From Bdellovibrionota bacterium (GTDB lineage Bacteria; Bdellovibrionota_C; UBA2361; OMII01): a DNA stretch of 64,000 nt. Positions 736-27,007 of the stretch are shown piece after piece. Position 1 is the first letter of the stretch; every line of letters begins with the position of its first letter. The DNA is taken from the NCBI GenBank assembly GCA_044351795.1, contig JBILFA010000001.1:28094-92093 (forward strand), read 5' to 3'. The position numbers were made by a program, and so were the translations under genes. The notes under the pieces are model-generated. The model had not been told where the DNA came from. It saw only the letters and a program-made list of their open reading frames with translations, and ran no database searches.

Positions 736-744
736 GGTCAGGGC

Positions 745-4531: not shown

Positions 4532-4587
4532 CCAGGAAAATATCGATTGTCAAATACTCGCAAGACTACTCACGAAACTTATCCATG

Positions 4588-12570: not shown

Positions 12571-12684
12571 CTTTGCCTATAGCTCCGAGCCTTTAACGAC
12601 GGAGTCGGATGCCCGTTTTATTATCGCCAGACTTTAATATAGGAGGGTTTTCTATCCTTAAGCAAGGCAGGCTTTACTAAGCGA

Positions 12685-13135
12685 GGCGCTTTGAGGTGTA
12701 TTCCGACGGGCGTACTGCGGTGATTGAGAATTTTCGGGGTGTGCGGAGTTTTGGCTTCAAAGGATTGAAGAGCAAGCACTTGTGGTCGCAGCAGAAGGGG
12801 CATGCGGAGTGTGTGGATGCGTTTCTGCGGGCGGTGCGTGGGGAGGATGTTGTGATCCCTTCTTGGGAGGAGATCCGGAATGTTACGCGGGCTACTGTGT
12901 TGGCTCGGGAGGCTGTGCGGAGTGGGGTTTCGTTTCGGGTTGAATAGGGTTTTGAGGGTTCCGGCTTAAGGCGACCGACACGGTCGCCCTCCCAATGTGA
13001 TTCGGGATTGGTTGGGGGCTGGCGCGATCGGCGAGACCCGGTTCCGGCTTGAGGCGACCGGGACGGTCGCGGTCCATGCGGATTCGGGGATGGTTGAGGT
13101 CTCTGGCGCGGACGGCGGCACACCGTCCCTCCTAA
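12685..13135 (+). repeat. repeat copy S1: oxidoreductase 3'-fragment (…GVSFRVE*) plus hairpin module H1/H1'/H2
   Basis: Protein fragment EVYSDGRTAVIENFRGVRSFGFKGLKSKHLWSQQKGHAECVDAFLRAVRGEDVVIPSWEEIRNVTRATVLAREAVRSGVSFRVE. Followed by ggcgaccgacacggtcgcc (12970–12988), ggcgaccgggacggtcgc (13053–13070) and gcgcggacggcggcacaccgtcc (about 13107–13128). Confidence 0.85.
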
Positions 13136-13229
13136 GGGCACGTGGAGCGGTTGATGTTGGTGTTCACGACTACGGCTGGGACCTCGCGGCGGAAGGTCCG
13201 TGGGGTCCATCGATTTATCTTCATACTAC

Positions 13230-14147: not shown

Positions 14148-14920
14148 CGGGATCCCTCATCAAAAAGGTCCGCTGGCAGTGTGAGGCGATATTTAGGGTG
14201 GAGTTTTCCGCTTTTCACTAATGTTCTATCGCCGCTGCCAAGGTCGATCTTGTCCAGATTCAATTTCTTTACCCACGGGAGTTTTAGCTCCTCGGCTAGG
14301 AGGAGAAAGAGGCGCTTTACCTTGATCGATGAGCAGCTTTCGAGAAGCTGCTGGACAAGCTTCGGACGTAGCGTCAGCAGTCCCGTCATGAGAAGGCGTG
14401 CTTCCGATAGGCTCTGATTCTTTGGCGCTGCGTGGAGCGTCTCCAGCATCGCACGTTCCCGTGAGGATACTTGGATTGAAAAGCTGCCGACGGTTTGTGA
14501 GGAGAGGCCAATGTCGTGAGGGAGTAGGTTCGTCGTCGCAAGCGTTATCGGGACACCCCAGTCGTGACGAGAGAACCAGCTGGGCAGGCGCGTTCCGGGA
14601 TCGGCGAAAAGTGCTACGTCCTCGCTGTCGAACTTGATAAAATGCGCAGCACCGTGATACGCCAAAGCGCTCTTACCCCCGAGATGAACAGGAAGCCTCG
14701 ATTGCTGCTGAAGGGCGAACAGACCGCCGCGCCAGTCAACCACATCACCAGCCTTTGCGAATGCTCCCCGACCGATGCCCACGAGCCACCCAGAGGTCCG
14801 ATAGTGATGAAGCAATACGTCGCTATAGCCGCGTTTCTTCAGAGTGGCGCTGGTAAAGACTGTCCCGCTGGGCCAGCTTAGTAAGAGCTGCTGTATTTTG
14901 CTTCGTTTTTCTGAAACCAT
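14144..14920 (-). CDS. AbiEi-family antitoxin (type IV TA), wHTH N-terminus
   Basis: 258 aa; 4-nt overlap with the abiEii start (ATGA); N-terminal region typical of AbiEi transcriptional-regulator antitoxins. Upstream AT-rich promoter carries a perfect palindrome. Confidence 0.6.
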   Translation of the reverse strand: MVSEKRSKIQQLLLSWPSGTVFTSATLKKRGYSDVLLHHYRTSGWLVGIGRGAFAKAGDVVDWRGGLFALQQQSRLPVHLGGKSALAYHGAAHFIKFDSEDVALFADPGTRLPSWFSRHDWGVPITLATTNLLPHDIGLSSQTVGSFSIQVSSRERAMLETLHAAPKNQSLSEARLLMTGLLTLRPKLVQQLLESCSSIKVKRLFLLLAEELKLPWVKKLNLDKIDLGSGDRTLVKSGKLHPKYRLTLPADLFDEGSR

Positions 14921-14971
14921 ACTTAATAAAGTAGCATATTTTCGTAGGACTACACTGTGATTTTATATTCA

Positions 14972-14994
14972 TTGCTTAAATTGAGCTTAAGCAA
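14972..14994. promoter_or_regulatory. candidate operator palindrome TTGCTTAA-N7-TTAAGCAA in the AT-rich abiEi upstream region
   Basis: Perfect 8-bp inverted repeat read directly in an unusually AT-rich about 200-bp stretch (14921–15120), 50–75 bp upstream of the abiEi start; AbiEi antitoxins are known to autoregulate via inverted repeats. Confidence 0.4.
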
Positions 14995-15189
14995 TATGTA
15001 TACATCTACTGCAACTGCCACTAATACTAAGCTAATCTAAGTAGTTACAATATATATGGCGATCGCTTATAGCTTTTCGAGCTAGGAATGCTAGGCGGGC
15101 TCATGTGCCGGGGCGCTACGAGTCTAACTACGAGAAGAAGGGGCTCGATTATCCGATCGGTTTCGTGCGCTGGACGGAGCAGCGCAATT

Positions 15190-15600
15190 TCGAAGCTGTG
15201 CTTTTGAGATGCATTCCGACGGGCGCACTGCGGTGATTGAGAATTTTCGGGGTGTGCGGAGTTTTGGGTTCAAAGAATTGAAGAGCAAGCGCTTGTGGTC
15301 GCAGCAGAAGGGGCATGCGGAGTGTGTGGAGGCGTTTCTGCGGGCGGTGCGTGGGGAGGATGTTGTTATTCCTTCGTGGGAGGAGATCCGGAATGTTACG
15401 CGGGCTACTGTGCTTGCTCGGGAGGCTTTGCGGAGTGGGGTTTCGTTTCGGGTTGAATAGGGTTTTGGGGGTTCCGGCCGAAGGCGACCGGGACGGTCGC
15501 GGTCCATGGGGTCGGATTCCGTCATAGCTGATGTCGAGGATCCAGGCGAACGGCGACCGACACGGTCGCCCTCCCAATGTGATTCGGGATTGGTTGGGGC
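15190..15600 (+). repeat. repeat copy S2: oxidoreductase 3'-fragment (…GVSFRVE*) plus hairpins H1' (15483–15500) and H1 (15552–15570)
   Basis: Near-identical to S1/S3/S4. Hairpin order H1'-H1 is reversed relative to S1. Confidence 0.85.
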
Positions 15601-15685
15601 CGCTGAGCTTAGCATGTGCAAGATGGGGGATATGGCTATCTATCACCCGATTGCTTAATTACAAAATCGGCGGTAATCTGTAACT

Positions 15686-16852
15686 ATGATCGACAGAGTA
15701 GTTAAGATACCGAAGAAAGGGCACTTTTTTCTCTTCGGCCCGCGCCAAACTGGGAAGAGTTCACTCGTAAGGGTAGCTTTTGAAGCACATGAGACACTCT
15801 CTATTAATTTGCTGCTCAGTCAGGAATATCGGCGACTGAAGCTAGACCCCGGGCTGATCGCGAGCGATGTTGGCGGCCGTGGGCCTGAGGTGCGTTACGT
15901 CGTCATCGACGAAGTACAGCGGGTTCCCGAGCTGCTCGATGAGATACACCACCTGATCGAATCGCCGAATGCACCTTACTTTGTGTTGACGGGCTCCAGC
16001 GCCAGAAAGCTCAAGCGTGCGAAGGCAAACCTCTTGGGTGGAAGAGCGAGCACTATCGAACTCTTCCCTCTAACCTATAAAGAACTCGGGGATCGTTTCT
16101 TCCTTGATCGAGCACTAGCATGGGGAACTCTTCCAAAACTGTACCTCGAGAACGACGAAGAGGAGCGCGCTACCTTTCTGCGCTCGTACGTCGACAACTA
16201 TCTCAAGGAGGAGATTCAAGCCGAAGCTGCGGTGCGAAACCTCTCGACGTTCCTGCGCTTCCTACCGCTTGCTGCCGAGTCAAATGGACAGGAGCTGAAC
16301 TTCTCGAAGATCGCGCGCGTGTGTCTGTCGAACCACAACACGATTAAATCTTACTATCAGATCCTGGAAGATACTCTCATCGGAAGATTTCTACTTCCTC
16401 TAGCAGGCTCGACACGACAACAGCTGTCGAAGAGACCAAAGTTTTATCTTTTCGATACGGGGATCATTCGAGCAATTCTAGGGCGCGAGCGTGCCCAACT
16501 ACACCCAGGCACGTACGAGTTTGGCGCACTCTTCGAGTCCTGGATCATCAACGAGGTGTGGCGGATAAATAGCTACTACAAAAAGAACCTACAGACATTT
16601 TTTTATCGTACCGACGCCGGTGCCGAGGTCGATCTGATCATCATCGATCCCCACCGCGCGAGGTACGCGATAGAGATCAAGAGCGCGAGCGACGTCGCAC
16701 CCGCGGATCTTGGAGCGGGCTTTGAGTCCTTAAGCGCTCACGGAGAGCTAGCGAAGCGTATCTGCGTAACAACGGGACCACGACCTTATTCGTCACAGGG
16801 AGTCGATTTTATGCCGTGGCGCGATTTTTTCGAGTGGCTCGTAGCCGTGTGA
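15686..16852 (+). CDS. AAA+ ATPase with C-terminal DUF4143-like domain
   Basis: Walker A GPRQTGKSSL, Walker B VVIDEVQ; architecture typical of the widespread ATP-binding protein (DUF4143) family. Confidence 0.75.
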   Translation: MIDRVVKIPKKGHFFLFGPRQTGKSSLVRVAFEAHETLSINLLLSQEYRRLKLDPGLIASDVGGRGPEVRYVVIDEVQRVPELLDEIHHLIESPNAPYFVLTGSSARKLKRAKANLLGGRASTIELFPLTYKELGDRFFLDRALAWGTLPKLYLENDEEERATFLRSYVDNYLKEEIQAEAAVRNLSTFLRFLPLAAESNGQELNFSKIARVCLSNHNTIKSYYQILEDTLIGRFLLPLAGSTRQQLSKRPKFYLFDTGIIRAILGRERAQLHPGTYEFGALFESWIINEVWRINSYYKKNLQTFFYRTDAGAEVDLIIIDPHRARYAIEIKSASDVAPADLGAGFESLSAHGELAKRICVTTGPRPYSSQGVDFMPWRDFFEWLVAV

Positions 16853-16904
16853 CGGTGGTTACTTAGACTCTGCAAGGCAAAGACATCGGCAGGAATTCCT
16901 ATTG

Positions 16905-17085
16905 AGAACGTGTCGGGTGGGGGCGTTTTGGGGTGGCGGTTATCGTGGGGTCGGACGTGTGGCGACCGGGACGGTCGCGGTCCGTGGGGATGTAATTCCG
17001 TAATGGCTGATGTCGATGATGCACGCGAACGGCGACCGACACGGTCGCCCCTCCCAATGTTACATGTATCTGGAATGGTTATTAC
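16905..17085 (+). repeat. hairpin-only repeat unit (no coding fragment): H1' 16961–16978 and H1 17031–17049
   Basis: …gtggcgaccgggacggtcgcggtccgtgggg…gaacggcgaccgacacggtcgcccctcccaatg; same module as downstream of the S-copies. Confidence 0.75.
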
Positions 17086-17141
17086 GTTGCCATTCTAGGC
17101 ATTTAATAGTGCTATACATTATCATTAACTTCTCCTAGAAT

Positions 17142-17651
17142 GTGTTTATGGACATTATCCGAGCGATTGTAACGCAAGTCGACGAAGAGCTTTCTCGCCT
17201 CACTGACGCGCGTCGCTCAGAGGATCTGCCAGGGCTCAAGCCGCTTGAAATCAAAGTTTTAGGGCAGATGTCCTTGCTAATGGATCCGGTCGGGCAATCG
17301 CTTAATCCTGCGGCGACTCGAGATATCGACGCTCTGTTGATGGGGGATCTCCTAGCGATAAATATATTCAGAGCCGTAATAAAATCGCACAGCCTTGTGT
17401 TTGACGAGCTCAGTAAAGAAATTTGGCTACCCGAGACTGCTGTGTTTATCCCGTACCATTCATCTGCGCACCTGATTGTTTCCTATGTGGATTCGATCTC
17501 GGCGTTAACGAGCAAAGCGATAAAGGCGAAAGAGAAGAATCGATATCTGATACGAAGAGGGCTAGAGGTTTTTGGAAAGCCACTCGAGGAAGCTATCGTT
17601 CGGTACGGCGGAGATATCAACTACTTCGTAGTCGGCAAGCTGGGGCTGTAA
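17142..17651 (+). CDS. hypothetical protein (possible minimal nucleotidyltransferase-like; uncertain)
   Basis: 169 aa. Weak GQMS…(17 aa)…RDIDAL resembles an NTase Gly-Ser…DxD pattern but is unconvincing. First gene of a 2-gene operon. Confidence 0.4.
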   Translation: MFMDIIRAIVTQVDEELSRLTDARRSEDLPGLKPLEIKVLGQMSLLMDPVGQSLNPAATRDIDALLMGDLLAINIFRAVIKSHSLVFDELSKEIWLPETAVFIPYHSSAHLIVSYVDSISALTSKAIKAKEKNRYLIRRGLEVFGKPLEEAIVRYGGDINYFVVGKLGL

Positions 17652-17652
17652 T

Positions 17653-18159
17653 ATGGCCAAACGAGCACCAAAGATCTCACAGAGTCTGGAGCGCAGAGTA
17701 TTTGGCTTTTTTGTTGCCAAAGGGCTTCTTATCGCACCTCACATAGCGCCGAAGAGCTCTGTGAAGCTGCGAATCGCCGATGTTGTGAATGTTGGGCTTC
17801 ATGTTGAGCCCCGAATTATCGAGGTGCTGCCGGCAGCGCTGCTCCACTTTCCGCGCTCTTTCATCGGATATGAGGATATGCCGGAAAAGTTGAGAGAGGC
17901 GCTCGACTGTATTCGCTCTGGACGGGAGTCAGGGCCCTCTCTCGCAGGTATTCCGTACAAAGCGATACTTCGCTGGGCAAACGAACCTCTGCCTGATAAG
18001 CGAACACGGCCCGAGAGAGACCGCCGTATAACAAAGGCCTTTAGGCTGAAGCGGGCTGCTCTCGAGAAGCTGAAAACTGATGCCTCTTCGGCAGGATTAA
18101 CGGAGACTCGGTACCTGGAGGAGCTTCTACTCGGCGGGGAATTTCAGGGCGAGAATTAA
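17653..18159 (+). CDS. hypothetical protein, basic; second gene of coupled pair
   Basis: 168 aa; start ATG 1 nt after the upstream TAA (translational coupling); no recognisable motif. Confidence 0.4.
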   Translation: MAKRAPKISQSLERRVFGFFVAKGLLIAPHIAPKSSVKLRIADVVNVGLHVEPRIIEVLPAALLHFPRSFIGYEDMPEKLREALDCIRSGRESGPSLAGIPYKAILRWANEPLPDKRTRPERDRRITKAFRLKRAALEKLKTDASSAGLTETRYLEELLLGGEFQGEN

Positions 18160-18177
18160 AGCCTTCTAGAGAGGTAC

Positions 18178-18289
18178 GAGGGCAAAAACGTTCTGCTCAG
18201 CTACCAATGACAGCACTTGTAGTAGCAGCTCAACTTGACGCGAGTACCGCTCGTTACTCATCGGGATCCCTTATCAAAAGGTTCGCTGG
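18178..18289 (+). repeat. partial duplicate of the abiEi/abiEii junction (copy of about 14070–14175)
   Basis: ggcaaaaacgttctgctcagctaccaatgacagcacttgtagtagcagctcaacttgacgcgagtaccgctcgtt(a/g)ctcatcgggatccct… matches 14070–14170 with a few mismatches, fused directly to repeat A2. Confidence 0.75.
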
Positions 18290-18870
18290 TGGAGCTGGAT
18301 GGGCCAGTCTCGATGGTAATGACGGTCACTGCTGGGCGGCTTCCGGCGAATAGTTGGATCATGGATGAGGCTGAAGGTGGTGGGCGAGTTATTAGTGAGG
18401 TGTGCCACTTTATCGATCTGATGGTGGCTGTGTCGGGATCTTTGGTTAGTTCGATCTCGGGGTTGGGATTACGGGAGAGTGGACGGGAGTTGCAATCGGC
18501 GAGCTTTTCGCTTGGGTTTTCAGATGGATCTATCGGGACGATTCACTACTTTGCGAATGGAAGTCGCAAGGTGCCTAAGGAGCGCTTTGAGGTGTTCTCG
18601 GATGGGCGTACTGCGGTGATTGAGAATTTTCGGGCTGTGCAGAGTTTTGGGTTCAAGGGCTTAAAGAGCAAGCGCTTGTGGTCGCAGCAGAAGGGGCATG
18701 CGGTGTGTATGGATGCGTTTCTGCGGGCGGTGCGGGGGGAGGATGTTGTTATTCCTTCGTGGGAGGAGATCCGGAATGTTACGCGGGCTACTGTGCTTGC
18801 TCGGGAGGCTTTGCGGAGTGGGGTGGCGTTTCGGGTGTAGGAAGGCGGCTGTATCGGTCGCCGTTCGTTC
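18290..18870 (+). repeat. repeat copy A2 (longest): about 180-aa C-terminal portion of the Gfo/Idh/MocA-type oxidoreductase (…GVAFRV*) plus trailing hairpin
   Basis: VELDGPVSMVMTVTAGRLP…DEAEGGGRVISEVCHFIDLM…FSLGFSDGSIGTIHYFANGSRKVPKERFEVFSDGRTAVIENF…EEIRNVTRATVLAREALRSGVAFRV*; followed by gaaggcggctgtatcggtcgcc. Confidence 0.8.
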
Positions 18871-18902
18871 GACCCCACCCCTGCGCCATCTTCGCAGTTG
18901 CA

Positions 18903-18950
18903 GTCGGCTAGCTTTTCGCTTGGGTTTGCTGATGGATCTATCGAGGCTCT
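18903..18950 (+). repeat. mini-fragment of the same oxidoreductase repeat (…LQSASFSLGFADGSI…)
   Basis: agttgcagtcggctagcttttcgcttgggtttgctgatggatctatcga matches 18507–18552 and 10966–11000. Confidence 0.6.
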
Positions 18951-19016
18951 TCCCCCTGCCGGATCACCGAGGAATTGCATTGACGCTGACGCCGTCCGGC
19001 TATACCATGGATAACT

Positions 19017-20231
19017 ATGGATTGGCCAAGTATATGGATACAAAGAGATTTTGAAGGTCTCTTAGAGTCTGCCTCGTCTCTGGGGCCCTTCTCGGTGCTG
19101 CTCCTACTTGGCCCGAGACAGGTAGGGAAAAGCTCGCTTCTCAACCGGTGCACGCCACTCGGCACCCAGAAAGTGAATCTCGATGATTTGGACGTCCGCA
19201 CTCGAGCGAATCAAGATCCTGCGTTGTTCGGCCGGGAGCTGGAGGTTCCGCTCCTCATCGATGAAATACAGTATGCGCCTGCTCTGTTGAGTCAGGTCAA
19301 AATACTTGCTGACCGCTTCCCGCGAGAGCTCAAGATCTTTCTCACTGGCTCGCAGAGTTTCGAGGTGATGCCTGGTGTCCGCGAAAGCCTCGCGGGTCGG
19401 GTTGCGATTCTCAATCTTTTCGGACTCTCGCTATCCGAGAAGGGGCTATCTGACGAGACTTCGCCCATCGAGTTTTTCAAGGAGTTTTTCATCGGAACAT
19501 TTCCAGCACTCCGTACCAGTGAGAATCCTGTCTGGACGCGCTACATGAGCAGTTACGTGCAGACCTACGTTCAAAGAGATGTCGGTGAACTGCTGGGTAT
19601 CCAAAAGCGCAGAGAGTTCGAACTCTTCTTGAAAGCGTGCGCACTGCGGACTGGCCAGCTGATTAACTATGAAGAATTGGCGCGGGATTCGTCAGTATCG
19701 GCAGCCACTGCTAAAGAATGGCTATCGATCTTGGAAGACAGCTTCCTTATTCGGCTCGTGCATCCTCATTTCAACAATCGCACCAAACGATTGATAAAGA
19801 CACCGAAGCTTTACTTCCTGGACACTGGCCTGTGTGCCTATCTCGCAGGATGGCGTGATAGTGAGCAGATTCGTGTCGGGCCGTGGGCTGGAGCGTTTTT
19901 TGAGACTGCAGTTTTCGGTGAGCTAGTCAGATACTTTTCGCACCGGGGCCTCGATTATCAGATTCACTTCTGGCGAGACAAGGACGGTAATGAAGTTGAC
20001 TTTCTAGTAGAAACGGGGGGAAGAATCTACCCAATCGAGGTCAAGCTCGGCACCCCTAATCCACGCGATCTTTGCTCTCTCGAGAGACTACAAGTTCCGG
20101 GTATCGAAGACGGTACTGTCGTCTCTATGGCTATGAGGGCAGCTGAAGGTGGGAGGAGAGCGCATGTCAAGGATCGATGGGTAGCGGCTGGTGTCAGAAT
20201 CGATAGAGTATTCGGACGTGCTGCAGTCTGA
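19017..20231 (+). CDS. AAA+ ATPase with DUF4143-like domain (paralogue of 15686–16852)
   Basis: Walker A GPRQVGKSSLL, Walker B LLIDEIQ; same architecture as 15686–16852. Confidence 0.75.
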   Translation: MDWPSIWIQRDFEGLLESASSLGPFSVLLLLGPRQVGKSSLLNRCTPLGTQKVNLDDLDVRTRANQDPALFGRELEVPLLIDEIQYAPALLSQVKILADRFPRELKIFLTGSQSFEVMPGVRESLAGRVAILNLFGLSLSEKGLSDETSPIEFFKEFFIGTFPALRTSENPVWTRYMSSYVQTYVQRDVGELLGIQKRREFELFLKACALRTGQLINYEELARDSSVSAATAKEWLSILEDSFLIRLVHPHFNNRTKRLIKTPKLYFLDTGLCAYLAGWRDSEQIRVGPWAGAFFETAVFGELVRYFSHRGLDYQIHFWRDKDGNEVDFLVETGGRIYPIEVKLGTPNPRDLCSLERLQVPGIEDGTVVSMAMRAAEGGRRAHVKDRWVAAGVRIDRVFGRAAV

Positions 20232-20257
20232 GGCTGTGGTGGCTTCATAGCGTTCTC

Positions 20258-20600
20258 TGACGGGCGCACTGCGGTGATTGAAAATTTTCGGGGTGTGCGG
20301 AGTTTTGGGTTTAGGTGTGTGAAGAGCACACGGCTGTGGTCGCAGCGAAGGGGCATGCGGAGTGTATCGATGCGTTTCTGCCGGCGGTGCGGGGGGAGGA
20401 TGTTGTGATCCTTTCTTGGGAGAAGATCCGGAATGTTACGCGGGCTACTGTGCTTGCTCGGGAGGCTGTGCGGAGTGGGGTTTCGTTTCGGGTTGAGTAG
20501 GGTTTTGGGGGTTCCGGCTTTAGGCGACCGGGACGGTCGCGGTCCATGGGGTTGTGATTCCGTAATAGCTTATGTCGATGATGCAGGCGCACGGCGGGGG
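20258..20600 (+). repeat. repeat copy S3: oxidoreductase 3'-fragment (…GVSFRVE*) plus H1' (20523–20540) and a degenerate second hairpin
   Basis: Starts 27 nt after the ATPase stop. Several substitutions (e.g. …VVAAKGHAECIDAFLPAVRGEDVVILSWEKIRNV…) suggest an older or decaying copy. Confidence 0.8.
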
Positions 20601-20671
20601 AATACATTCGAGTGGATTCGTTCATCAAAAGACGACAACATGTAATTAGCTGTTTATTTAATGATGCTTGT

Positions 20672-20965
20672 ATGATCGACTTAAACGACATTCACTCTCT
20701 CTCTGATTTTCAGCGGAACGCTAAGGACCACATCGAGCGCTTGAAGAAAACCGGAAAGCCTGAGGTCTTAACCGTCAACGGGAGGGCAGAAGTAATTGTC
20801 CAAGACGCCCAATCGTACCAAGCGCTCATAGAAACGATCGAGCGTCTCGAAACCCTCGCTGGTCTCCGACTTGGGCTTCAGGAGGTCGAGCAAGGCAAGA
20901 CCGCATCGGCTCAAGATGTCTTTACTCGCATGCGCACTAAGCACAAGATTCCCAAGCGCGCATGA
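20672..20965 (+). CDS. Phd/YefM-family type II antitoxin
   Basis: MIDLNDIHSLSDFQRNAKDHIERLKKTGKPEVLTVNGRAEVIVQDAQSYQALIETIE… matches the Phd/YefM fold pattern. Start probably at the internal ATG 20672 rather than 20612. Stop overlaps the next ORF's ATG (ATGA). Confidence 0.7.
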   Translation: MIDLNDIHSLSDFQRNAKDHIERLKKTGKPEVLTVNGRAEVIVQDAQSYQALIETIERLETLAGLRLGLQEVEQGKTASAQDVFTRMRTKHKIPKRA

Positions 20966-21066
20966 TCTTCAAAGTACAGATTACCCAGCAGGCCGAAGCC
21001 GAATTAAATGAAGCCTACGAATGGATCGCCAACCAGTCGCTAGAACAGGCAGTGGTCTGGTTCAAG
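20962..21066 (+). pseudogene. RelE/ParE-family toxin, N-terminal about 35 aa only; truncated by insertion of repeat copy S4
   Basis: MIFKVQITQQAEAELNEAYEWIANQSLEQAVVWF is a typical ParE N-terminus. Reading frame then runs directly into the repeat (KGLKSKRLWSQQKGH…GVSFRVE*). Confidence 0.65.
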
Positions 21067-21320
21067 GGTTTAAAGAGCAAGCGCTTGTGGTCGCAGCAGA
21101 AGGGGCATGCGGAGTGTATGGATGCGTTTCTGCGGGCTGTGCGGGGGGAGGACGTTGTTATTCCTTCGTGGGAGGAGACCCGGAATGTTACGCGGGCTAC
21201 TGTGTTGGTTCGCGAGGCTGTGCGGAGTGGGGTTTCGTTTCGGGTTGAGTAGGGTTTTGGGGGTTCCGGCCTTAGGCGATCGGGACGGTCGCCGTCCGTA
21301 GGGATGTTATTCCGTAATGG
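21064..21320 (+). repeat. repeat copy S4 (short, begins at …KGLKSKRLWSQQ) plus hairpin ggcgatcgggacggtcgcc (21275–21292)
   Basis: Direct sequence identity to the other S copies; 5' boundary lies inside the parE coding sequence. Confidence 0.8.
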
Positions 21321-21371
21321 CTGAGGTCTATGAGGTACGCGCACGGGAAACGTGAGGATTGCTCTGGCGAT

Positions 21372-22652
21372 TTACTCTGTAGCATGAGCCACTCTAAATG
21401 CCGGGGCCATTCGGGCTTGCTCACTCTTGCCGATCTTTATCCCCTTTGCCTCAATCGGCCATGCTTTGACTGCCTTTATGACTCGGTTGATTGTCGCCTT
21501 GGCTTGTTTCGCATTCAACCGAAAGAAAGGTGCAACCTCTAACGCGAGGTCCAGTGACTGTGCGTTGTCGGTCTCGGATATATTAAGTAGTAGTCCATCT
21601 CCTAGGGGATTTGGGTTTACGTCGTACATGGGAGAGAGCGCCCACCCTTGCGGAGTAAGGAGGAATCCGTGATTACGCAGATGATCGTCTACGTTGGAAA
21701 CACATATCGAGAAAACGATTCGAGTCCACAGCTCATGCAGGTCTCTTTGAGGGCAAGCTCCGCTTCGAACAATAAGCTCTGCAAGCTCTAGATAGCTTGC
21801 GCCATCTGAACCGCTGTCGCCATCATTTCGCTGAAGAAGGGTCATGGCAGAAGCAAAATGAATTCTCGAGCGCCGAGCACCTCGATCAAATCGCTGCGTA
21901 AGAAAGGTATGGTGATCAGAGGCCAGCGTCCTCAAGCGCACGTTTGCCACATCTAGCCCGGCTTTTTTAGCAAGGGTGTGAGCCAGGTACTCCCATGCTC
22001 CGACATCATAGGTGTCACCTTTGCTGGGAAATTTCGCAATCCACAGAGCACCTTTAGGATCAATCACACTTGCCTTGGGTCTCGCACCTCCAAGAGAAGC
22101 CCCTGGAGCCATGAGCATAGAGAGCCATTTCTTGTAGCCAGGCTTGGTTTCAGCTCCGCTTTTCTCTAGCTGTAGGCTTGCGTGCTCTAGCTCGCGAAGC
22201 GATGTCCAGGGTGGTGCTGCGTAGGCATGATCGTCATCGAGGAAGGGGCCATCGGCGCTTGTCTTGAATCGTAAGCCTCCCATGCGGTGACCATCGTAGA
22301 CCCCCAGGAGGTAGTCAGACTCTCGAAGTGGCACAACTGCCCTACCCTCCTCTCGAGCTCGTTGGGCTTCCCGGCGGTCCATGAGTACTCGGCCCCATCG
22401 GTCCGGGCTGGAATCCAGGAAGAGGTTGAAGCTACCTGCTCCTTCTGGGGCGTATTGAACTCCGGTATAGAGAGCAAGCGAGGGATCCAGGTTTTGAGCG
22501 TTCGGAGATTGCAACCACTCCTTGTCGTACTCAAATGCAAAGATCTCTCTACCCCTTCCAGGAGAGGCGTACAGAGTACCGAGCCTCTGCGGGTTCTCCA
22601 TACCGATCCAGTCGGCCCACACCTCGATGCGCTTTCTCTCTCCCTTTCGCAT
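21372..22652 (-). CDS. hipA: HipA-family serine/threonine kinase toxin
   Basis: About 426 aa; HipA N-terminal coupling domain plus C-terminal kinase-like region (GGARPKASV…WIAKFPS, DDHLRNHGFLL with catalytic D-x-H-x-x-N). Confidence 0.85.
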   Translation of the reverse strand: MRKGERKRIEVWADWIGMENPQRLGTLYASPGRGREIFAFEYDKEWLQSPNAQNLDPSLALYTGVQYAPEGAGSFNLFLDSSPDRWGRVLMDRREAQRAREEGRAVVPLRESDYLLGVYDGHRMGGLRFKTSADGPFLDDDHAYAAPPWTSLRELEHASLQLEKSGAETKPGYKKWLSMLMAPGASLGGARPKASVIDPKGALWIAKFPSKGDTYDVGAWEYLAHTLAKKAGLDVANVRLRTLASDHHTFLTQRFDRGARRSRIHFASAMTLLQRNDGDSGSDGASYLELAELIVRSGACPQRDLHELWTRIVFSICVSNVDDHLRNHGFLLTPQGWALSPMYDVNPNPLGDGLLLNISETDNAQSLDLALEVAPFFRLNAKQAKATINRVIKAVKAWPIEAKGIKIGKSEQARMAPAFRVAHATE

Positions 22653-22660
22653 GGTGTGCT

Positions 22661-22981
22661 CTACGTGCGCCTCATTTTGGGCGCACGCTCCTTTGGTTTG
22701 AGCTCAGAGTCTTGCAGCTTTCGCCCCAACACATCATCCCTTCCCAAGTGAGCAAGGTCCTCCTGGAGCCCCAAGGCGGCAAGAACATTGACGTAGGCAC
22801 CCATGGCTACGCTCCCATCGCCACGCTCGATGGAGCGTAGGGTCGGAAGAGATATGTCCGCTCGCTCCGCTACGATTTGGCTTGAGAAGCGCCGTCGTAG
22901 CCTAGCTAGCCTTAGGTTCTCTCCCACTTGGCGTAGAAGGCGCTGTGCCGAGGGTAGAATGACAGGTGTACGCTTGGCCAT
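22661..22981 (-). CDS. hipB: XRE-family HTH regulator (HipB-like antitoxin)
   Basis: Cro/C1-type HTH (LRLARLRRRFSSQIVAERADISLPTLRSIERGD) immediately upstream of hipA, 9-nt spacer. Real start probably MAKRT (22981). Confidence 0.7.
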   Translation of the reverse strand: MAKRTPVILPSAQRLLRQVGENLRLARLRRRFSSQIVAERADISLPTLRSIERGDGSVAMGAYVNVLAALGLQEDLAHLGRDDVLGRKLQDSELKPKERAPKMRRT

Positions 22982-23044
22982 AACAGCAAATATAATTACC
23001 AATAAAATGCTTTATTGCAACTTTATTTTCACCTATTTTAAGAG

Positions 23045-23400
23045 CACGTGCGTGTGGTCGCAGCAAAAGGGGCATGCGGAGTGTATCGATGCGTTTCTGC
23101 GGGCGGTGCGGGGAGAGGATGTTGTGCTCCCTTCGTGGGAGGAGATCCGGAATGTTACGCGGGCTACTGTGTTGGCTCGGGAGGCTGTTCGCAGTGGGGT
23201 TGCGTTTCGGGTGTAGGAAGGCGGCTGTGTCGGTCGCCGTTTGTTGGACCCCACCTCTGAGCCACCTTCGCAATCGACATGATCGTCAAATGCAGGCGTA
23301 TGTCGATGGTGCCAACGCACGGCGACCGACAGGGTCGCCCTCCCCGGGGATTCGGGGAGGGTTGAAGGCTCTGGCGCGGACGGCAGCACGCCGTCCCTCC
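23045..23400 (+). repeat. repeat copy A3: oxidoreductase 3'-fragment (…GVAFRV*) plus H1 (23320–23338), a GGGGAGGG-type stem (23337–23364) and H2 (23373–23396)
   Basis: …WSQQKGHAECIDAFLRAVRGEDVVLPSWEEIRNVTRATVLAREAVRSGVAFRV*; ggcgaccgacagggtcgcc; ccctccccggggattcggggaggg; gcgcggacggcagcacgccgtccc. Confidence 0.8.
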
Positions 23401-23422
23401 TGGGCCATCGGCGTTTGCGATT

Positions 23423-24110
23423 TCAGCGAGCTAATGAACAAAACGTCTGAATTTGAGCAAATATCTTTTCTGCTCTCACCCGTTCGGACCGATGTAGGCA
23501 TCCATACACTGCATCTATGAAATCCTGGTCTTGCAATAGGACGCTGAATTGATTGCGAAGGAACCCTCTCACTTCCCTATCGGCCGTTACCAGCTTATCG
23601 ACGAAATTACTACAGCCGTCGATTACCAATACTATATCTTCAATATCGCTGGAGCCGCGGTAATCGTTCTGGCCCCGCGAATGAAAGGCCTCAAGCTTGG
23701 TCGCGATGAAACATGCAAGAGATAGTATCTTTATCTTGGTACCGGAGGGCAGCGAATACTCCTGACACTCTTGATATCCCTTGTCATACCATCTGTTCGA
23801 AAAACCAAGTATGTCTTCCGCCAAGGGCATGACATCAACGGTTATGTTTTTATAAATCCATCGGCAGATCGGGGCTCCAACCCTGGAATCATTTGCAAAG
23901 CCTTTTCGTCACAGCTCATAGGAGAGTTCGTCGAACTGCTTTTTGGATCCTACTTCCACGATGCAATCGACATCCTCAGTAGGGCGAGATTCAGGAGCTC
24001 CCTTACTATCGATATACAAGGAGGCAGTGGCTCCACCTACGAAAACAGCCTGACTCAACAGTTACCCGAGGCCTGCTGCTACTATCTCTAATCTTTCAAT
24101 ATTGGTGTTC
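23423..24110 (-). pseudogene. minimal nucleotidyltransferase (AbiEii/MNT-like), apparently frameshifted
   Basis: One frame gives LSQAVFVGGATASLYIDSKGAPESRPTEDVDCIVEV (GG…S…DxD NTase motif) ending in a stop just before the 135-aa ORF 23423–23830 in another frame. No single open frame spans the gene. Confidence 0.4.
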
Positions 24111-24127
24111 ATGCGATTGGGACACAG

Positions 24128-24690
24128 TCACGCTACACCGCCAAGCTCAACTCCGAACCTCTTTTCGAGTTCTCGCTTGGCAATCTTCTGCTCACGGACC
24201 CTACCTATACGTAGGGCATCGACTAATGAGAGAAGCTCGTGCAATTCTCTATCCTTGGACGCCGCGAATGGCGCGCTCGAATAGAGGGGCGTTACCGAGT
24301 GCCCCCTGATATCTCCATCAGGGAATGGCCACACGTACTGATCTTCCTTTGCGCTCACGATACCCTTTGAAAGTGGTAGTGCGGAATGAGCAGTCGCTAT
24401 ACCTCGAACCACCGGACCAAGCTCGACGGGAAAAACATACTTCAATCCATACACAAGAAATTCCAAGGCATTCCGCTTAAGCACCGCTTTCTTATCAGAG
24501 CTCAGTAGTTGGGATCTGACGAGCCGCTCGAGCCCATGCGAAATCTCTGAGGGGCTTACCCCTACATCTACCGCTAGATCAATCACTCTGGGGGTAGCCT
24601 CCAAGGTGAGTATCTTGAGCAGTATCAGGATATCTTGTGGTTTTAACGGTGAGGTTCTTCGCATAAGAGATCTTGCCTCCTCCATAACTA
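24128..24690 (-). CDS. HTH-domain protein (AbiEi-like / transcriptional-regulator antitoxin candidate)
   Basis: Putative wHTH region ILILLKILTLEATPRVIDLAVDVGVSPSEISHGLERL. 3' end 17 nt from the NTase gene. Annotated 5' end (24736) overlaps a perfect palindrome, so the real start is probably downstream (about 24650–24690). Confidence 0.45.
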
Positions 24691-24704
24691 TCATACTATG
24701 CATT

Positions 24705-24731
24705 TTGTGATTTGCAAATTGCAAATCACAA
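24705..24731. promoter_or_regulatory. perfect 27-bp palindrome TTGTGATTTGCAA-A-TTGCAAATCACAA at the 5' end of the HTH gene (candidate operator)
   Basis: Read directly: ttgtgatttgcaaattgcaaatcacaa, symmetric about AATT. Confidence 0.5.
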
Positions 24732-24837
24732 CACAAATAGTTTTAATAATTTACCCCCATCTCAGGCGACACGGGCGCTGTTACCGGATCGTATGAGGGG
24801 TAAATTGCCATGTCTTGAGATGCCCCATTGCGCCGGC

Positions 24838-24919
24838 TCACTTTTCGCTTGGGTTTGCGGATGGGTCGATTGGGAACATTCACTACTTTGCCAACGGTAG
24901 TCGTAAGGTGCCTAAGGAA
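24838..24919 (+). repeat. 3'-truncated fragment of the oxidoreductase repeat (FSLGFADGSIGNIHYFANGSRKVPKE|), interrupted by the REP/RAYT unit
   Basis: cttttcgcttgggtttgcggatgggtcgattgggaacattcactactttgccaacggtagtcgtaaggtgcctaaggaa then diverges. Confidence 0.65.
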
Positions 24920-25012
24920 GCGAGGCAAAACCCCTCCCTGCTGCGAAAGCGGATCTTGGGTTGCTCTTCAATTTTCACGACGGTGAAAAATCCTCAATGT
25001 ATCGCAGCGGGC

Positions 25013-25035
25013 AAAGTCGTGACAGTCACGACTTT
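25013..25035. repeat. REP-like hairpin AAAGTCGTGA-cag-TCACGACTTT (left flank of RAYT gene)
   Basis: Perfect 10-bp inverted repeat; related to the GGGAAAGTCGTG…CACGACTTTCCC hairpins at 25743–25771 and 26141–26168. Confidence 0.75.
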
Positions 25036-25703
25036 ACCACTTTTGGCCGACCCATTTTAGGAGGGTGAGCCATTACCCCATATTCTCTCTCCAAAGAATC
25101 GAGAAAGTCCGTCGTACCCGTGGGCAGGTCGCGGAATGTACATCTCCTCAGTTGAGCTACATCCTCAGGATTCTCGCTGACAGCCAGCCATGATTCCCAA
25201 TCCGTCTTGCTCCGGAGTCTTTCGGCGTAGGGGCCCTCGGTCGAAATGAGCGGGTCAGCGCTGCCTGCGCAGTGAGCACGAGCGCTCGACCATGCATAAT
25301 CGGTTGCCTGCCGCACCATATGGGCCTTGACTGGATTCTGCAGAATATAGCGGACGGCAGTCCAAAAGAATCGGTCGTCAACGGGACTGGAGTAAAACCG
25401 AGCTTGCCAGAGGTGTCCGGTCCAGCCACCCCTGGCGTTAATGTACTCTGCGTACCGCTTGTGCGAGGTTTGGAATGTCCACTGCAGAGAATCCTTTTCC
25501 AATGGTACCACGAGGTGGTGCACATGATTTGTCATCAGCGCATAAGTCAAGACTTGGGCGCCGTGCCGGGCTGCGCTCTGAGCCAAAAGGTTTAGGTAAA
25601 CCTCCCTATCCCCATCACAGAAGAATACATCCTGCCTGCGCCCCCCGCGTTGGGTCACATGGTGTGGAATGTTTGGAATTACGATTCGACCGCGTCTTGC
25701 CAT
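25026..25703 (-). mobile_element. IS200-like Y1 (HUH) transposase, REP-associated (RAYT-like) / TnpA_IS200 family
   Basis: HxH motif (TNHVHHLVVP) and catalytic Tyr region (WTGHLWQARFYSSPV); about 225 aa. Flanked by matching palindromic hairpins. ORF-finder start at 25763 lies inside the hairpin; MARRGRIV at 25703 is the likely start. Confidence 0.8.
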
Positions 25704-25771
25704 GCTGCTAATTCGGCATCCAAGGGCAGAAGTTGCGTAAAGTGGGAAAGTCGTGGCTGTCACGACTTTCC
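25697..25771. repeat. REP unit copy 1 (direct repeat containing hairpin GGGAAAGTCGTG-gctg-TCACGACTTTCCC)
   Basis: …gctgctaattcggcatccaagggcagaagttgcgtaaagtgggaaagtcgtggctgtcacgactttccc; duplicated at 26096–26168 with 5 mismatches. Confidence 0.8.
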
Positions 25772-26095
25772 CGCCAAGCTGTACTCGCTCGAGAGAGTAT
25801 TTGGAGGGGGGTTAAGAAGCGTCTGCGAAGCGGACATACAGCTGCGGTTCCCGGCTAGTTTGGAGATGCTATCAAGTTACCGGTAGGTTATGCGGCTGGG
25901 AGTAGTTCAAGTCGCGTACTCTTCGGATATAGTATTCCGTTTGGGATTGATGGGGTGTTCAGGGCGGCGGGGGTTGCGGGCGCAACTGCTCGGCTGTGTC
26001 AAAGGTCTCCTTAGGCGCTAGATCTGCCCGGATACGATCGAAATGGACGGTTTTGGACGATTTCTGCTCTGTCGAAGCAGGGGGGGGCGCCTTGC

Positions 26096-26168
26096 TTCCC
26101 GCTGCTAATTCGGCATCCAAAAGCAGAAGTTGCGGAATGTGGGAAAGTCGTGGCTGTCACGACTTTCC
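26096..26168. repeat. REP unit copy 2 (orphan, no adjacent transposase)
   Basis: cgctgctaattcggcatccaaaagcagaagttgcggaatgtgggaaagtcgtggctgtcacgactttcc. Confidence 0.8.
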
Positions 26169-26245
26169 TTATGTCACACCTTTGGAGACTCCTGCATAAC
26201 CGAAAAAGATACATTCAGCCCGTTAAACAGGAGGCGTAAGGAAAT

Positions 26246-27007
26246 ATGGGACCAGTTACTCAAGGAAATCGTGAGCAACAGAGCTCAGGGACAGTTGCAG
26301 CAGTAAATAGCTTGAACGATGCCACCACACCTTCTATCGACCGCCGTGGTTTTGGGATAAGACTCGCAGCTGCAGCGCTAACTGCCTTGGTCGGGACAAC
26401 CGTTCCAACCTCCGCTAAAGCTCAGGAACCAGAGCCAGCCCCGGGGACAACCCCAGAGAAAGCCCCCGAGACAGAGGCTAAGAAGGAACCGAGACCCGGC
26501 ATCGATTCTCCTCTCGATATGGCAACTGTGACCGTGCCGGACCATGTCTATGACGAGGAAGCCGTTCGGAAACCGATTGAGAAGGCGGGCCTTGGTCTCT
26601 TTTCTGCCCCTTCAGCAGGATCAGCGCTTCAGGTGGCCGCACTCGCGGTAGAGAAGGTTGGTAGGGAGAATATTCCAGAAGGTCATGTGATGATGATCTC
26701 TGTGACCGGCGCTAAAGGAGAGCGAGAGTTCGTCATCGATCCTGCGAAGGTGCCGAGGAGCGATTTCGATCAGAGAGACTACGACGAGGCTATTAGAGGG
26801 CCCAATAGGGATGCTGATCTGGCCGATTTCGTTGAATCTCTTTCGAGAGGGCGCCTTGGTATAGAACTCTCGGTCAGTGGCAAGCGGCTAGGAGATGACC
26901 CCTCGGTCACCTTCGAGTTCGTAAAGAGGGGCTACGGCACACCCGCTACTCTATCTGTGCAGTTTATCGACCCTGCAACGATTAGGGCAGCCGGTCCTAC
27001 GGAGTAA
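26246..27007 (+). CDS. hypothetical secreted protein with Tat-type signal peptide
   Basis: Twin-arginine motif DRRGFGIRLAAAALTALVG…AKA; Pro/Glu-rich linker; no catalytic motif recognised. Confidence 0.5.
   Translation: MGPVTQGNREQQSSGTVAAVNSLNDATTPSIDRRGFGIRLAAAALTALVGTTVPTSAKAQEPEPAPGTTPEKAPETEAKKEPRPGIDSPLDMATVTVPDHVYDEEAVRKPIEKAGLGLFSAPSAGSALQVAALAVEKVGRENIPEGHVMMISVTGAKGEREFVIDPAKVPRSDFDQRDYDEAIRGPNRDADLADFVESLSRGRLGIELSVSGKRLGDDPSVTFEFVKRGYGTPATLSVQFIDPATIRAAGPTE

What the first reader, a model, noticed from the sequence alone, without database searches (positions are those of the whole stretch)
24838..26168. REP–RAYT-type unit: IS200-like Y1 transposase flanked by perfect palindromes, with a 70-bp promoter-plus-hairpin direct repeat
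The 25026–25703 ORF has the HUH (NHVHHLV) and Tyr (WTGHLWQARFY) motifs of IS200/IS605-type Y1 transposases. It is flanked by hairpins of one family: left AAAGTCGTGA-cag-TCACGACTTT (25013–25035), right GGGAAAGTCGTG-gctg-CACGACTTTCCC (25743–25771). The right hairpin plus the region containing the transposase start codon is duplicated about 400 bp further on (26096–26168) as an orphan copy, a REP doublet. The unit has inserted into yet another oxidoreductase fragment (24838–24919, truncated at …KVPKE). These hairpins differ from the GGCGACCG family in the array, so the genome has at least two REP-like families; this RAYT is a candidate trans-acting mobiliser.
Basis: partly seen in the sequence, partly recalled or inferred. 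Interest (0 to 1): 0.65.

Follow-up and report, generated by a model that had tools for sequence, protein, structure and literature searches.

The report
RAYT-type nuclease gene bracketed by hairpins
This is a small, real unit of a known kind: a gene for a single-strand-DNA-cutting enzyme of the RAYT/TnpA-REP type, bracketed by inverted copies of its own hairpin and sitting in a strain-variable array of toxin-antitoxin cassettes. Nothing here shows that it spreads hairpins around this genome.

Summary
ORF 25026-25703 (minus strand, 225 aa) is a Y1 HUH enzyme (Pfam Y1_Tnp). Its high-confidence model is closest to E. coli TnpA-REP (4ER8), not to the IS200/IS608 transposases. A 34-nt inverted repeat flanks it; each arm is a 5'-GTGG foot plus a perfect hairpin. 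A 68-nt copy of leader plus hairpin lies 397 bp away.

It is a REPtron/TIRtron-like unit (class 2 TnpA-Y1, with motifs most like subclass 2.1 / RAYT Group 1), not an ordinary IS200/IS605 element.

Related metagenome contigs carry the 763-bp unit (25010-25772) in at least three array positions. Every junction falls within 3 nt of a hairpin foot. Some strains also carry a deleted, catalytically dead copy.

In about 100 kb of this lineage, every hairpin sits at a unit end or remnant, so genome-wide REP mobilisation is unshown here. A sister clade (about 35% identical) has the same hairpin dispersed, mostly extragenic, sometimes as inverted doublets.

Not supported:
- the "promoter" (no consensus match);
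- the "REP doublet" (the extra copy is direct and distant);
- a simple insertion into the oxidoreductase fragment;
- a second genome-wide REP family (the GGCGACCG hairpins are confined to the array).

Verdict: new member of a known kind, modest interest.

The parts
25010..25772 (-). The whole unit (763 bp): REP, RAYT gene, leader, inverted REP
   Evidence: Matched over essentially this span (ends within 3 nt) at 95.7-99.5% in L001/L002 (left end; those contigs run on past the right hairpin), L097/L117 and L120, and L121. The neighbours differ, and the flanks diverge within 3 nt of the hairpin feet.
25026..25703 (-). RAYT/TnpA-REP-like Y1 HUH gene, 225 aa. HUH at H60/H62, invariant Y119 (YILQNP), WSS tail motif, C-terminal extension ending GRPK. 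The TGA stop codon lies inside the hairpin.
25010..25043 (-). REP on the 3' side of the gene. On the minus strand it reads AAAGTGG-TAAAGTCGTGA-CTG-TCACGACTTTGCC. It overlaps the last codons and the stop codon.
25704..25738 (-). Conserved 5' leader (CGCAACTTCTGCCCTTGGATGCCGAATTAGCAGC) between the REP and the ATG
   Evidence: Conserved in L117, L120 and L121, and partly in the Bdellovibrionota locus L022. No consensus promoter.
25739..25772 (+). REP on the 5' side of the gene. On the plus strand it reads AAAGTGG-GAAAGTCGTG-GCTGT-CACGACTTTCCC. It is inverted relative to the other REP.
25773..26100 (.). 328-nt spacer with no detectable homology outside the near-identical contigs L001/L002
26101..26168 (+). 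Orphan direct copy of leader plus REP (94% identical), with no ORF attached
   Evidence: There is an analogous 60-nt tandem copy in L097 and extra end copies in L119 and L022.
24841..24918 (+). Fragment of the oxidoreductase 3' end (the 'left part' of the array repeat). It is followed by 91 nt of unique sequence (24919-25009).

Best explanation
This is a REPtron/TIRtron-type unit. A gene for a class-2 TnpA-Y1 enzyme (RAYT/TnpA-REP-like HUH single-strand DNA nuclease-ligase) is bracketed by two inverted copies of its cognate REP, each a 5'-GTGG foot, a 12-bp perfect stem and a 5-nt loop.

Inferred mechanism, by analogy with E. coli TnpA-REP and IS608: when the DNA is single-stranded, for example at a replication fork, each REP folds. 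The enzyme binds the hairpin and its foot. Its tyrosine cuts next to the hairpin and rejoins the ends.

In this lineage the detectable consequences are local. The 763-bp unit sits at different places in a strain-variable cassette array. Flanking DNA has been exchanged within 3 nt of the hairpin feet. Leader-plus-hairpin remnants and an internally deleted, non-autonomous copy exist.

The unit therefore behaves as a low-copy, semi-autonomous element. It falls between an insertion sequence and a domesticated RAYT, rather than being a fixed single-copy gene that services hundreds of dispersed REPs.

Shown: enzyme family, fold, hairpins, inverted arrangement, and junctions at the hairpin feet. Inferred: catalysis at these hairpins, the cleavage position, and the strand.
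For: Enzyme:
- Pfam Y1_Tnp above threshold.
- The only NCBIfam hit is REP_Tyr_transpos.
- H60/H62 and Y119 are invariant, with a Y---NP motif, across 50 homologues.
- AF2 model pLDDT 93.6. Best PDB match is 4ER8, E = 2e-9, TM 0.75.

DNA:
- 3 hairpins against 0.04 expected.
- 34-nt inverted repeat.
- Stable ssDNA folds.

Related contigs:
- L001/L002 diverge from the window at 25010, into a Fic cassette.
- L097/L117 and L120 have the unit next to a 17101-18132-like cassette.
- L121 has it directly upstream of the AAA2 cassette.
- L050/L117 and L120 also carry a copy about 250 bp shorter that has lost the W motif and Y119 but keeps both hairpins.

Family:
- More than 4,471 homologues of about 225 aa.
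- The flanking inverted repeats change with protein clade.
- A sister clade (33-35% identical) is flanked by the same hairpin in the same relative orientation.

Literature:
- REPtron/TIRtron arrangement (PMC6006769, PMC3733652).
- TnpA-REP cleaves and joins folded ssDNA REPs (PMC8266576).
Against: - No empty-site/filled-site pair was found, so whole-unit transposition is inferred from differing contexts, not demonstrated.
- All contexts lie inside one hypervariable array, whose own unknown rearrangement process could move the unit.
- Copies within one genome are 92-96% identical, not near-identical, so the moves are not recent.
- Unit divergence between strains (about 4%) equals that of neighbouring cassettes.
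- No target-site duplication and no shared flanking motif at the junctions.
- The GTGG foot is GGGG in the 5' REPs of relatives.
- The NCBIfam score is below the equivalog cutoff.
- No biochemical data exist for this clade.
Confidence: 0.68

Rival explanations
1. Classical domesticated REP-RAYT system. The gene is a single-copy host gene whose product mobilises many dispersed REPs/REPINs of this hairpin family across the genome. The copies seen here are just the REPtron.
For: - The sister clade has the same hairpin in 68 metagenome loci, 60 of them without a RAYT in the held flanks.
- 61 of the 80 hairpins lie outside long ORFs.
- Inverted doublets 32-44 bp apart occur in L023, L059, L070, L082 and L102.
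- There is a solo window-type REP (GTGG foot, GCTGT loop) in a related MAG, L033.
- Only 64 kb of the source genome (half of its 128-kb contig) could be read here.
Against: - No solo hairpin, even with 4 mismatches, in the window (64 kb) or in L117, L120 and L121 (about 37 kb).
- No half-arms above chance.
- The scans of one genome per species and of JGI metagenomes found the window-type variant only next to RAYT copies, apart from L033.
- The unit is duplicated and relocated in relatives, unlike a fixed housekeeping-like RAYT.
Confidence: 0.2
2. An ordinary IS200/IS605-family insertion sequence (tnpA only) that transposes by peel-and-paste.
For: - A discrete unit bounded by hairpins, in several positions.
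- An internally deleted derivative.
- Hairpins restricted to unit ends in this lineage.
Against: - The ends are inverted repeats, whereas IS200/IS605 left and right ends are not.
- The tyrosine motif is Y---NP (class 2), not Y---Q (class 1) (PMC6006769 Table 1).
- 225 aa with a C-terminal extension, against about 150 aa.
- No IS200 model hit in NCBIfam at E <= 0.01.
- The structure is nearer to 4ER8.
- No tnpB, and the copies are not near-identical.
Confidence: 0.05
3. Passive cargo. The gene is one more cassette moved by whatever rearranges the array. The hairpins act mainly as bidirectional terminators or regulatory palindromes.
For: - Every context found is inside the array.
- The hairpin overlaps convergent stop codons: its own ORF, AAA1 in L050, and the 168-aa ORF in L097.
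- Many sister-clade copies look like terminators (A-run, stem, T-run).
Against: - Junctions fall at hairpin feet and truncate the neighbours at arbitrary internal points. They do not fall at the array's recurrent breakpoints.
- The same inverted hairpin pair flanks homologues that are only 33-35% identical and lie in unrelated contexts.
- Other homologues sit among housekeeping genes, not arrays.
Confidence: 0.1

Closest known systems
E. coli REPtron / TnpA-REP (RAYT; PDB 4ER8; subclass 2.2, Bertels Group 2)
   Same: - HUH plus single Tyr catalytic core, and the best structural match.
- The gene is bracketed by inverted REP hairpins.
- The GT[AG]G-type foot 5' of the stem is GTGG here.
- The W-Q residues of the guide-binding region are present (HLWQ).
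   Different: - Only about 18% identical.
- 60 aa longer, with a conserved C-terminal extension.
- Perfect rather than bulged palindromes.
- No evidence here of hundreds of dispersed REPs.
- The unit is relocated and duplicated between strains.
- Below the NCBIfam equivalog cutoff.
TIRYT/TIRtron (Di Nocera 2013, PMC3733652) = TnpA-Y1 subclass 2.1 (Quentin 2018, PMC6006769) = RAYT Group 1 (Bertels 2017, PMC5581495)
   Same: - About 225-240 aa.
- NHVH, WQ and Y-x-x-x-NP motifs; the family consensus YVERNP is close to YIELNP.
- The 'SS' tail motif (WSS) and a conserved C-terminal extension.
- Flanked by terminal inverted repeats, some self-complementary and moderately repeated.
- The most IS-like of the large RAYT groups (duplicates and a few plasmid copies).
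   Different: - The TIR here is a perfect hairpin with a GTGG foot, not the GGGGWSAS consensus.
- Quentin et al. reported in their text that no REP-like sequences were found for subclass 2.1, though their Table S1 lists a few 2.1 entries. Here the flanks are REP-like, and in a sister clade they are dispersed.
- Membership rests on motifs only. The authors' profiles were not available. YILQNP also fits subclass 2.7.
IS200/IS605 family (IS608, ISDra2, IS200)
   Same: - Y1 HUH fold.
- Hairpins at the ends of the coding unit.
- ssDNA chemistry expected.
- A discrete unit with a deleted derivative.
   Different: - Inverted rather than same-strand end hairpins.
- Class-2 tyrosine motif.
- A longer protein.
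- No tnpB.
- Low copy number and diverged copies.
TnpA-REP (subclass 2.1) associated with prochlorosin gene clusters in picocyanobacteria (bioRxiv 10.1101/2020.03.09.984088)
   Same: Full-length and truncated copies of a Group 1 / subclass 2.1-type gene are interspersed in a hypervariable multi-gene region. A role in diversifying recombination has been proposed.
   Different: - Different cargo (toxin-antitoxin/Abi cassettes rather than procA) and a different host lineage.
- The authors themselves later found no strong evidence for causality.
- No causal link is shown here either.

Membership tests
Y1 HUH transposase superfamily (Pfam PF01797) | HUH metal-binding motif and a single catalytic Tyr on the following helix, with a profile match above the gathering score | tested here: met
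   - NHVH at aa 59-62.
- Y119 invariant in 50 homologues.
- Y1_Tnp 37.9 bits against 23.
- The ferredoxin-like fold matches all solved Y1 transposases.
RAYT / TnpA-REP (class 2 TnpA-Y1) | Class-2 tyrosine motif Y-x-x-x-N-P, rather than Y---Q as in IS200 | tested here: met
   YILQNP in the window protein; YVERNP in the family consensus. Criterion from PMC6006769.
RAYT / TnpA-REP (class 2 TnpA-Y1) | Gene flanked by REP hairpins in inverted orientation (REPtron) | tested here: met
   34-nt inverted repeat 25010-25043 / 25739-25772, each arm containing a perfect hairpin. The same arrangement occurs in relatives and in the sister clade.
RAYT / TnpA-REP (class 2 TnpA-Y1) | Conserved 5' GT[AG]G tetranucleotide at the foot of the hairpin | tested here: inconclusive
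   GTGG is present at all three window copies and in L033. The 5' REPs of L117 and L121 have GGGG. At the 3' REP the positions are also coding (K-V-V).
RAYT / TnpA-REP (class 2 TnpA-Y1) | Cognate REPs dispersed in many extragenic copies in the host genome | tested here: inconclusive
   None in about 100 kb of this lineage. The whole genome was not available. Dispersal is shown only for the sister clade and by one solo copy, L033.
RAYT / TnpA-REP (NCBIfam NF047646 equivalog) | Score at or above the curated cutoff (80 bits) | tested here: not met
   61.4 bits, E = 8.6e-17. It is the only family hit.
TIRYT / subclass 2.1 / RAYT Group 1 | About 238 aa, NHVH + W[EQ] + Y[IV]ELNP-like motifs, 'SS' proximal tail motif, conserved C-terminal extension | tested here: met
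   Alignment A3 compared with Table 1 of PMC6006769. This is a motif-level comparison only; YILQNP also fits subclass 2.7.
TIRYT / subclass 2.1 / RAYT Group 1 | Match to the authors' subclass HMM profiles, or clustering with Group 1 sequences | not testable with these tools
   Neither the profiles nor the sequences are held.
TIRYT / subclass 2.1 / RAYT Group 1 | TIR with the GGGGWSAS consensus (the majority type) | tested here: not met
   The TIR here is (A)AAGTGGGAAAGTCGTG.... The 46-47% homologues have a GGGACGCA core instead.
IS200/IS605 insertion sequences | Y---Q motif, a protein of about 150 aa, non-inverted subterminal hairpins, multiple near-identical copies, often with tnpB | tested here: not met
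   No tnpB was called next to the gene in any locus.
REPIN (inverted REP doublet) | Two REPs in inverted orientation separated by a short spacer and able to form one long hairpin | tested here: not met
   The extra window copy (26101-26168) is in direct orientation, 397 bp from the right REP. True inverted doublets occur only in sister-clade loci.

The most novel reading that the evidence does not exclude
The RAYT and its REP feet are the recombination engine of the array. Cutting and joining single-stranded DNA at the hairpin feet would capture, swap and delete the neighbouring toxin-antitoxin/Abi cassettes at the 3' end of the oxidoreductase gene. That would make an HUH-driven, integron-like diversification system, the kind of role once proposed for subclass 2.1 TnpA-REP at prochlorosin clusters.

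Consistent with this:
- Every close relative found has the unit inside the array.
- In pairs of related contexts one flank is conserved while the other is replaced within 3 nt of a hairpin foot.

Not supported by:
- The absence of RAYT-type hairpin arms at the other cassette junctions.
- The different sequence of the array's own hairpins.
- The ascertainment bias: all related loci were found through the RAYT gene.
Probability: 0.08. Interest if true: 0.75.

Novelty: new member of a known kind. Interest (0 to 1): 0.33.

Why it matters
RAYT/TnpA-REP enzymes are the textbook case of a domesticated bacterial transposase, but how REPs spread, and how REPtrons arose from IS200-like ancestors, is unresolved.

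This unit is a clean, low-copy example from a poorly studied lineage. It has perfect inverted REPs, an intact gene, a deleted non-autonomous copy and strain-level rearrangements at the hairpin feet. It looks like an intermediate between an insertion sequence and a domesticated RAYT.

The hairpin AAAGTCGTG-nCWGn-CACGACTTT is shared by protein clades only about 35% identical, across several phyla, and in one of them it is dispersed. If the protein belongs to subclass 2.1 / Group 1, this adds a REP-like hairpin case to a subclass whose main text reports none. It also offers a compact enzyme-substrate pair for biochemistry.

The value is that of a useful specimen, not a new principle.

Tried and rejected
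- **Rfam and tRNA scans of the window:** nothing.
- **Sigma-70 promoter scan of 24700-26400:** none. The terminator-like hits were at chance level.
- **Sequence search of the PDB:** only marginal hits (4ER8 E = 0.06). A fold search was needed.
- **A second RAYT copy or pseudogene in the window:** none, including in the 328-nt spacer.
- **Homology of the 91-nt (24919-25009) and 328-nt (25773-26100) segments:** none beyond L001/L002.
- **Half-arm 'footprints' of the RAYT hairpin at array junctions:** 8 hits, 6 of them the known arms, against 3.7 expected. The apparent remnants at 12686 and 18944 are not above chance.
- **GGCGACCG hairpins as a second REP family serviced by this enzyme:** they are confined to the array's repeated segments and are absent from all other RAYT-homologue loci.
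- **Target-site duplication or a shared target motif at the junctions:** none seen.
- **Plasmid search:** only distant homologues, at most 36% identical, in 24 records.
- **Looking for this hairpin in Table S1 of Quentin et al.:** not listed.
- **P0002 locus:** no DNA could be retrieved.
Full report
**1. What is in the sequence**

The minus strand of 25026-25703 encodes a 225-aa protein starting MARRGRIVIPNIPHHVTQRG.
- It matches Pfam Y1_Tnp at 37.9 bits, against a gathering score of 23.
- In NCBIfam it matches only REP_Tyr_transpos (NF047646), at 61.4 bits and E = 8.6e-17. That is below the 80-bit equivalog cutoff.
- The HUH motif is NHVH (aa 59-62).
The invariant tyrosine is Y119 in RYILQNP.

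The hairpin pattern AAAGTCGTG-N5-CACGACTTT occurs three times in the 64-kb window (25013, 25747, 26144). The chance expectation is 0.04, and no further copies appear even with 3 or 4 mismatches.

The two copies around the gene are the cores of a 34-nt inverted repeat, 25010-25043 / 25739-25772. Read in its own orientation, each arm is AAAGTGG, then a 12-13-bp stem, then a loop (5 nt at the 5'-side REP and the orphan copy; 3 nt at the 3'-side REP once its stem is fully paired). The GTGG foot is on the gene side and the 3' side of the stem faces outward.

As single-stranded DNA the hairpins fold at -11.7 to -15.2 kcal/mol, z = -4.7 to -6.9. The gene's TGA stop codon lies inside the 3'-side hairpin.

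A 68-nt direct copy of the 5' leader plus hairpin lies at 26101-26168 (94% identical). It ends one base short of the position of the start codon.

There is only one RAYT copy in the window.

**2. What the protein is**

A search of public proteins found more than 4,471 homologues, nearly all about 225 aa.

In an alignment of 50 of them, H60, H62, Y119 and N123 are invariant and P124 is nearly so. The consensus shows NHVH, HLWQ, Y-V-E-R-N-P, a WSS tail motif and a conserved C-terminal extension ending GRPxK.

An AlphaFold model built on this alignment is confident (mean pLDDT 93.6, pTM 0.90). Its best match among solved structures is E. coli TnpA-REP bound to a REP hairpin (4ER8: E = 2e-9, TM 0.75 on the target, 160 aligned columns). 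The IS608, ISDra2 and IS200 transposases follow at E = 5e-6 to 5e-4.

Compared with the published classification of TnpA-Y1 proteins (PMC6006769):
- The Y---NP motif places it in class 2, the RAYT side, not in class 1 (IS200, Y---Q).
- Its length, NHVH/WQ motifs, 'SS' tail motif and C-terminal extension fit subclass 2.1. That subclass equals Bertels Group 1 and the TIRYT group of Di Nocera.
- Its own YILQNP also fits the small subclass 2.7.

I could not run the authors' profiles, so the subclass is a motif-level assignment.

**3. Related DNA: the unit is discrete and its surroundings change at the hairpin feet**

The identical protein occurs on two short metagenome contigs, L001 and L002. These match the window at 99.3-99.5% from the spacer right of the unit (26075 in L001, 25980 in L002) down to 25010. 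At the foot of the left hairpin they diverge into the upstream region of a Fic gene that is 82% identical to window 12669-12349.

A 69.8-kb contig from another sample (L097/L117/L118; protein 93% identical) has the unit (window 25010-25772, 95.7%) next to a cassette like window 17485-18132. A 60-nt tandem copy of leader plus hairpin follows it.

The same contig carries a second copy between two AAA_14/DUF4143 cassettes. This copy is about 250 bp shorter, has lost the W motif and Y119, and is frameshifted, but it keeps both hairpins.

A 13.4-kb contig (L120) has the same two copies. A 4.4-kb contig (L121) has an intact unit directly upstream of the second AAA cassette.

So the unit occupies at least three positions:
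- **Site A:** right flank is AAA2.
- **Site B:** left flank is the 17101-18132 cassette.
- **Site C:** right flank is the 328-nt spacer.

Within each site one flank is conserved, while the other has been replaced within 3 nt of a hairpin foot.

Neighbouring genes are truncated at arbitrary points. AAA1 loses 4 codons and the 168-aa ORF loses about 8, with the hairpin supplying the stop codon.

I found no target-site duplication, no common target motif and no empty-site/filled-site pair.

Divergence of the unit between strains (about 4%) equals that of the neighbouring cassettes. The two copies within one genome are 92-96% identical. These are therefore old events, not ongoing bursts.

**4. Is it a REP system?**

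In this lineage, every hairpin in the window, L117, L120 and L121 (about 100 kb) lies at a unit end or a remnant.

Scans of one genome per species and of JGI metagenomes found the window-type variant (loops ACAGT/GCTGT) only next to RAYT copies. The one exception is a solo GTGG-footed copy on a 1.8-kb contig from a lake 'delta proteobacterium' bin (L033).

The same scans uncovered a sister family, AAAGTCGTG-CCTGT-CACGACTTT:
- It occurs in 68 metagenome loci and in several MAGs (Planctomycetales, Omnitrophota).
- Only 8 of the metagenome loci have a RAYT homologue in the held flanks: 6 are sister-clade genes and 2 (L050, L097) are the window-type unit.
- 61 of the 80 hairpins lie outside long ORFs.
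- Five loci have inverted doublets 32-44 bp apart.

The RAYT genes of that clade are 33-35% identical to ours over their full length. They are flanked by the hairpin in the same relative orientation: nCAGn loop upstream and nCTGn loop downstream on the sense strand.

Closer homologues (62-67%) have decayed hairpins. Homologues at 46-47% have a different inverted repeat with a GGGACGCA core. One at 52% has none.

Flanking repeats that change with protein clade are the hallmark of REPtrons and TIRtrons (PMC6006769, PMC3733652).

**5. How it most likely works**

The model comes from E. coli TnpA-REP and IS608 (PMC8266576): the enzyme binds folded single-stranded hairpins, uses the 5' tetranucleotide to select a nearby cleavage site, and cuts and rejoins through its tyrosine.

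By that analogy, I infer that this protein acts on its two flanking REPs. The junctions seen in relatives suggest cleavage immediately 3' of the stem.

The enzyme family, the fold, the hairpins and the breakpoints at the hairpin feet are shown. Catalysis, strand and cleavage site are inferred.

The 'promoter' in the finding's title has no support from a consensus scan. However, the 35-nt leader is conserved, even in a Bdellovibrionota locus.

**6. Context**

The unit lies at the distal end of a hypervariable array (10963-24918). The array is made of repeated copies of the 3' end of a 718-aa oxidoreductase, each followed by GGCGACCG hairpins, with toxin-antitoxin/Abi cargo between them.

The GGCGACCG hairpins are confined to the array, so they are not shown to be a genome-wide REP family. 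RAYT-type hairpin arms are not found at the other cassette junctions.

The idea that the RAYT drives the array remains a low-probability possibility. It has a published, and later hedged, precedent at prochlorosin clusters.

**7. Verdict**

This is a RAYT-type REPtron/TIRtron, not an ordinary IS200 element.
- Its role as a genome-wide mobiliser in this organism is untested.
- Several details are wrong: the promoter, the REP doublet, the insertion into the oxidoreductase fragment, and the second REP family.
- It is a new member of a known kind, of modest interest.

Noticed in passing
window 10963-24918: A hypervariable cassette array. At least 8 copies of the 3' end of a 718-aa ADH_N/ADH_zinc_N/GFO_IDH_MocA oxidoreductase are present. 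Each has a variable 5' truncation and a common 3' end, and each is followed by one or two GGCGACCG-N2-3-CGGTCGC hairpins. Between them lies toxin-antitoxin/Abi cargo: Fic, AbiEi, two AAA_14-DUF4143, Phd, and HipA plus an HTH protein. The oxidoreductase gene is intact only in relatives (L117 15663-17819). Cassette order and content differ between strains about 4% diverged. No integrase lies in the window, and the mechanism is unexplained.
   Followed up: partly
window 10969, 18504, 18896, 24838; and 12686, 15203, 24918: Recurrent breakpoints inside the repeated oxidoreductase segment. One lies before CTTTTCGCTTGGG. The other lies at CCTAAGGA^GCGCTTTG. This suggests repeated events at the same sites. 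The motif AGCGAGGC occurs at both 12678 and 24919.
   Followed up: partly
L023, L059, L070, L082, L102, plus about 55 further loci (L047-L114): A REP/REPIN-like family, AAAGTCGTG-CCTGT-CACGACTTT, in metagenome contigs of 44-49% GC and in Planctomycetales/Omnitrophota MAGs. It is mostly extragenic, usually far from any RAYT gene, and sometimes occurs as inverted doublets 32-44 bp apart. Its cognate RAYT clade (L032, L049, L054, L073, L075, L088) is only 33-35% identical to the window protein.
   Followed up: partly
L116 9967-9989/10745-10767; L123 9885-9908/10680-10703: Homologues 46-47% identical are flanked by a different inverted repeat with a shared GGGACGCA core. In L116 the downstream copy is duplicated. 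In L123/L124 the gene sits at the same place (between a type II secretion cluster and a polysaccharide cluster) in two samples.
   Followed up: partly
L121 1439-1993: An IS110-type transposase gene (Transposase_20) lies inside the same array in one related strain.
   Followed up: no
window 24695-24741: A 23-nt-arm imperfect palindrome (ACTATGCATTTTGTGATTTGCAA / TTGCAAATCACAACACAAATAGT) overlaps the TTG start of the 202-aa ORF 24128-24736 (minus strand, no Pfam match). It may be an operator.
   Followed up: no
L117 13784-14291; L120 8502-8988: A non-autonomous derivative of the unit, about 515 bp. It has an internal deletion of about 250 bp that removes the W motif and the catalytic Tyr, but both hairpins are intact. 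The same deletion is present in two samples.
   Followed up: yes
window 1-10706 and 36667-61838: The region surrounding the array is a large polysaccharide-biosynthesis locus: glycosyltransferases, a MurJ-like flippase, two AsnB-like amidotransferases, a DegT aminotransferase and YfhO. Homologues of the RAYT in L116 and L123 also sit beside polysaccharide genes.
   Followed up: no
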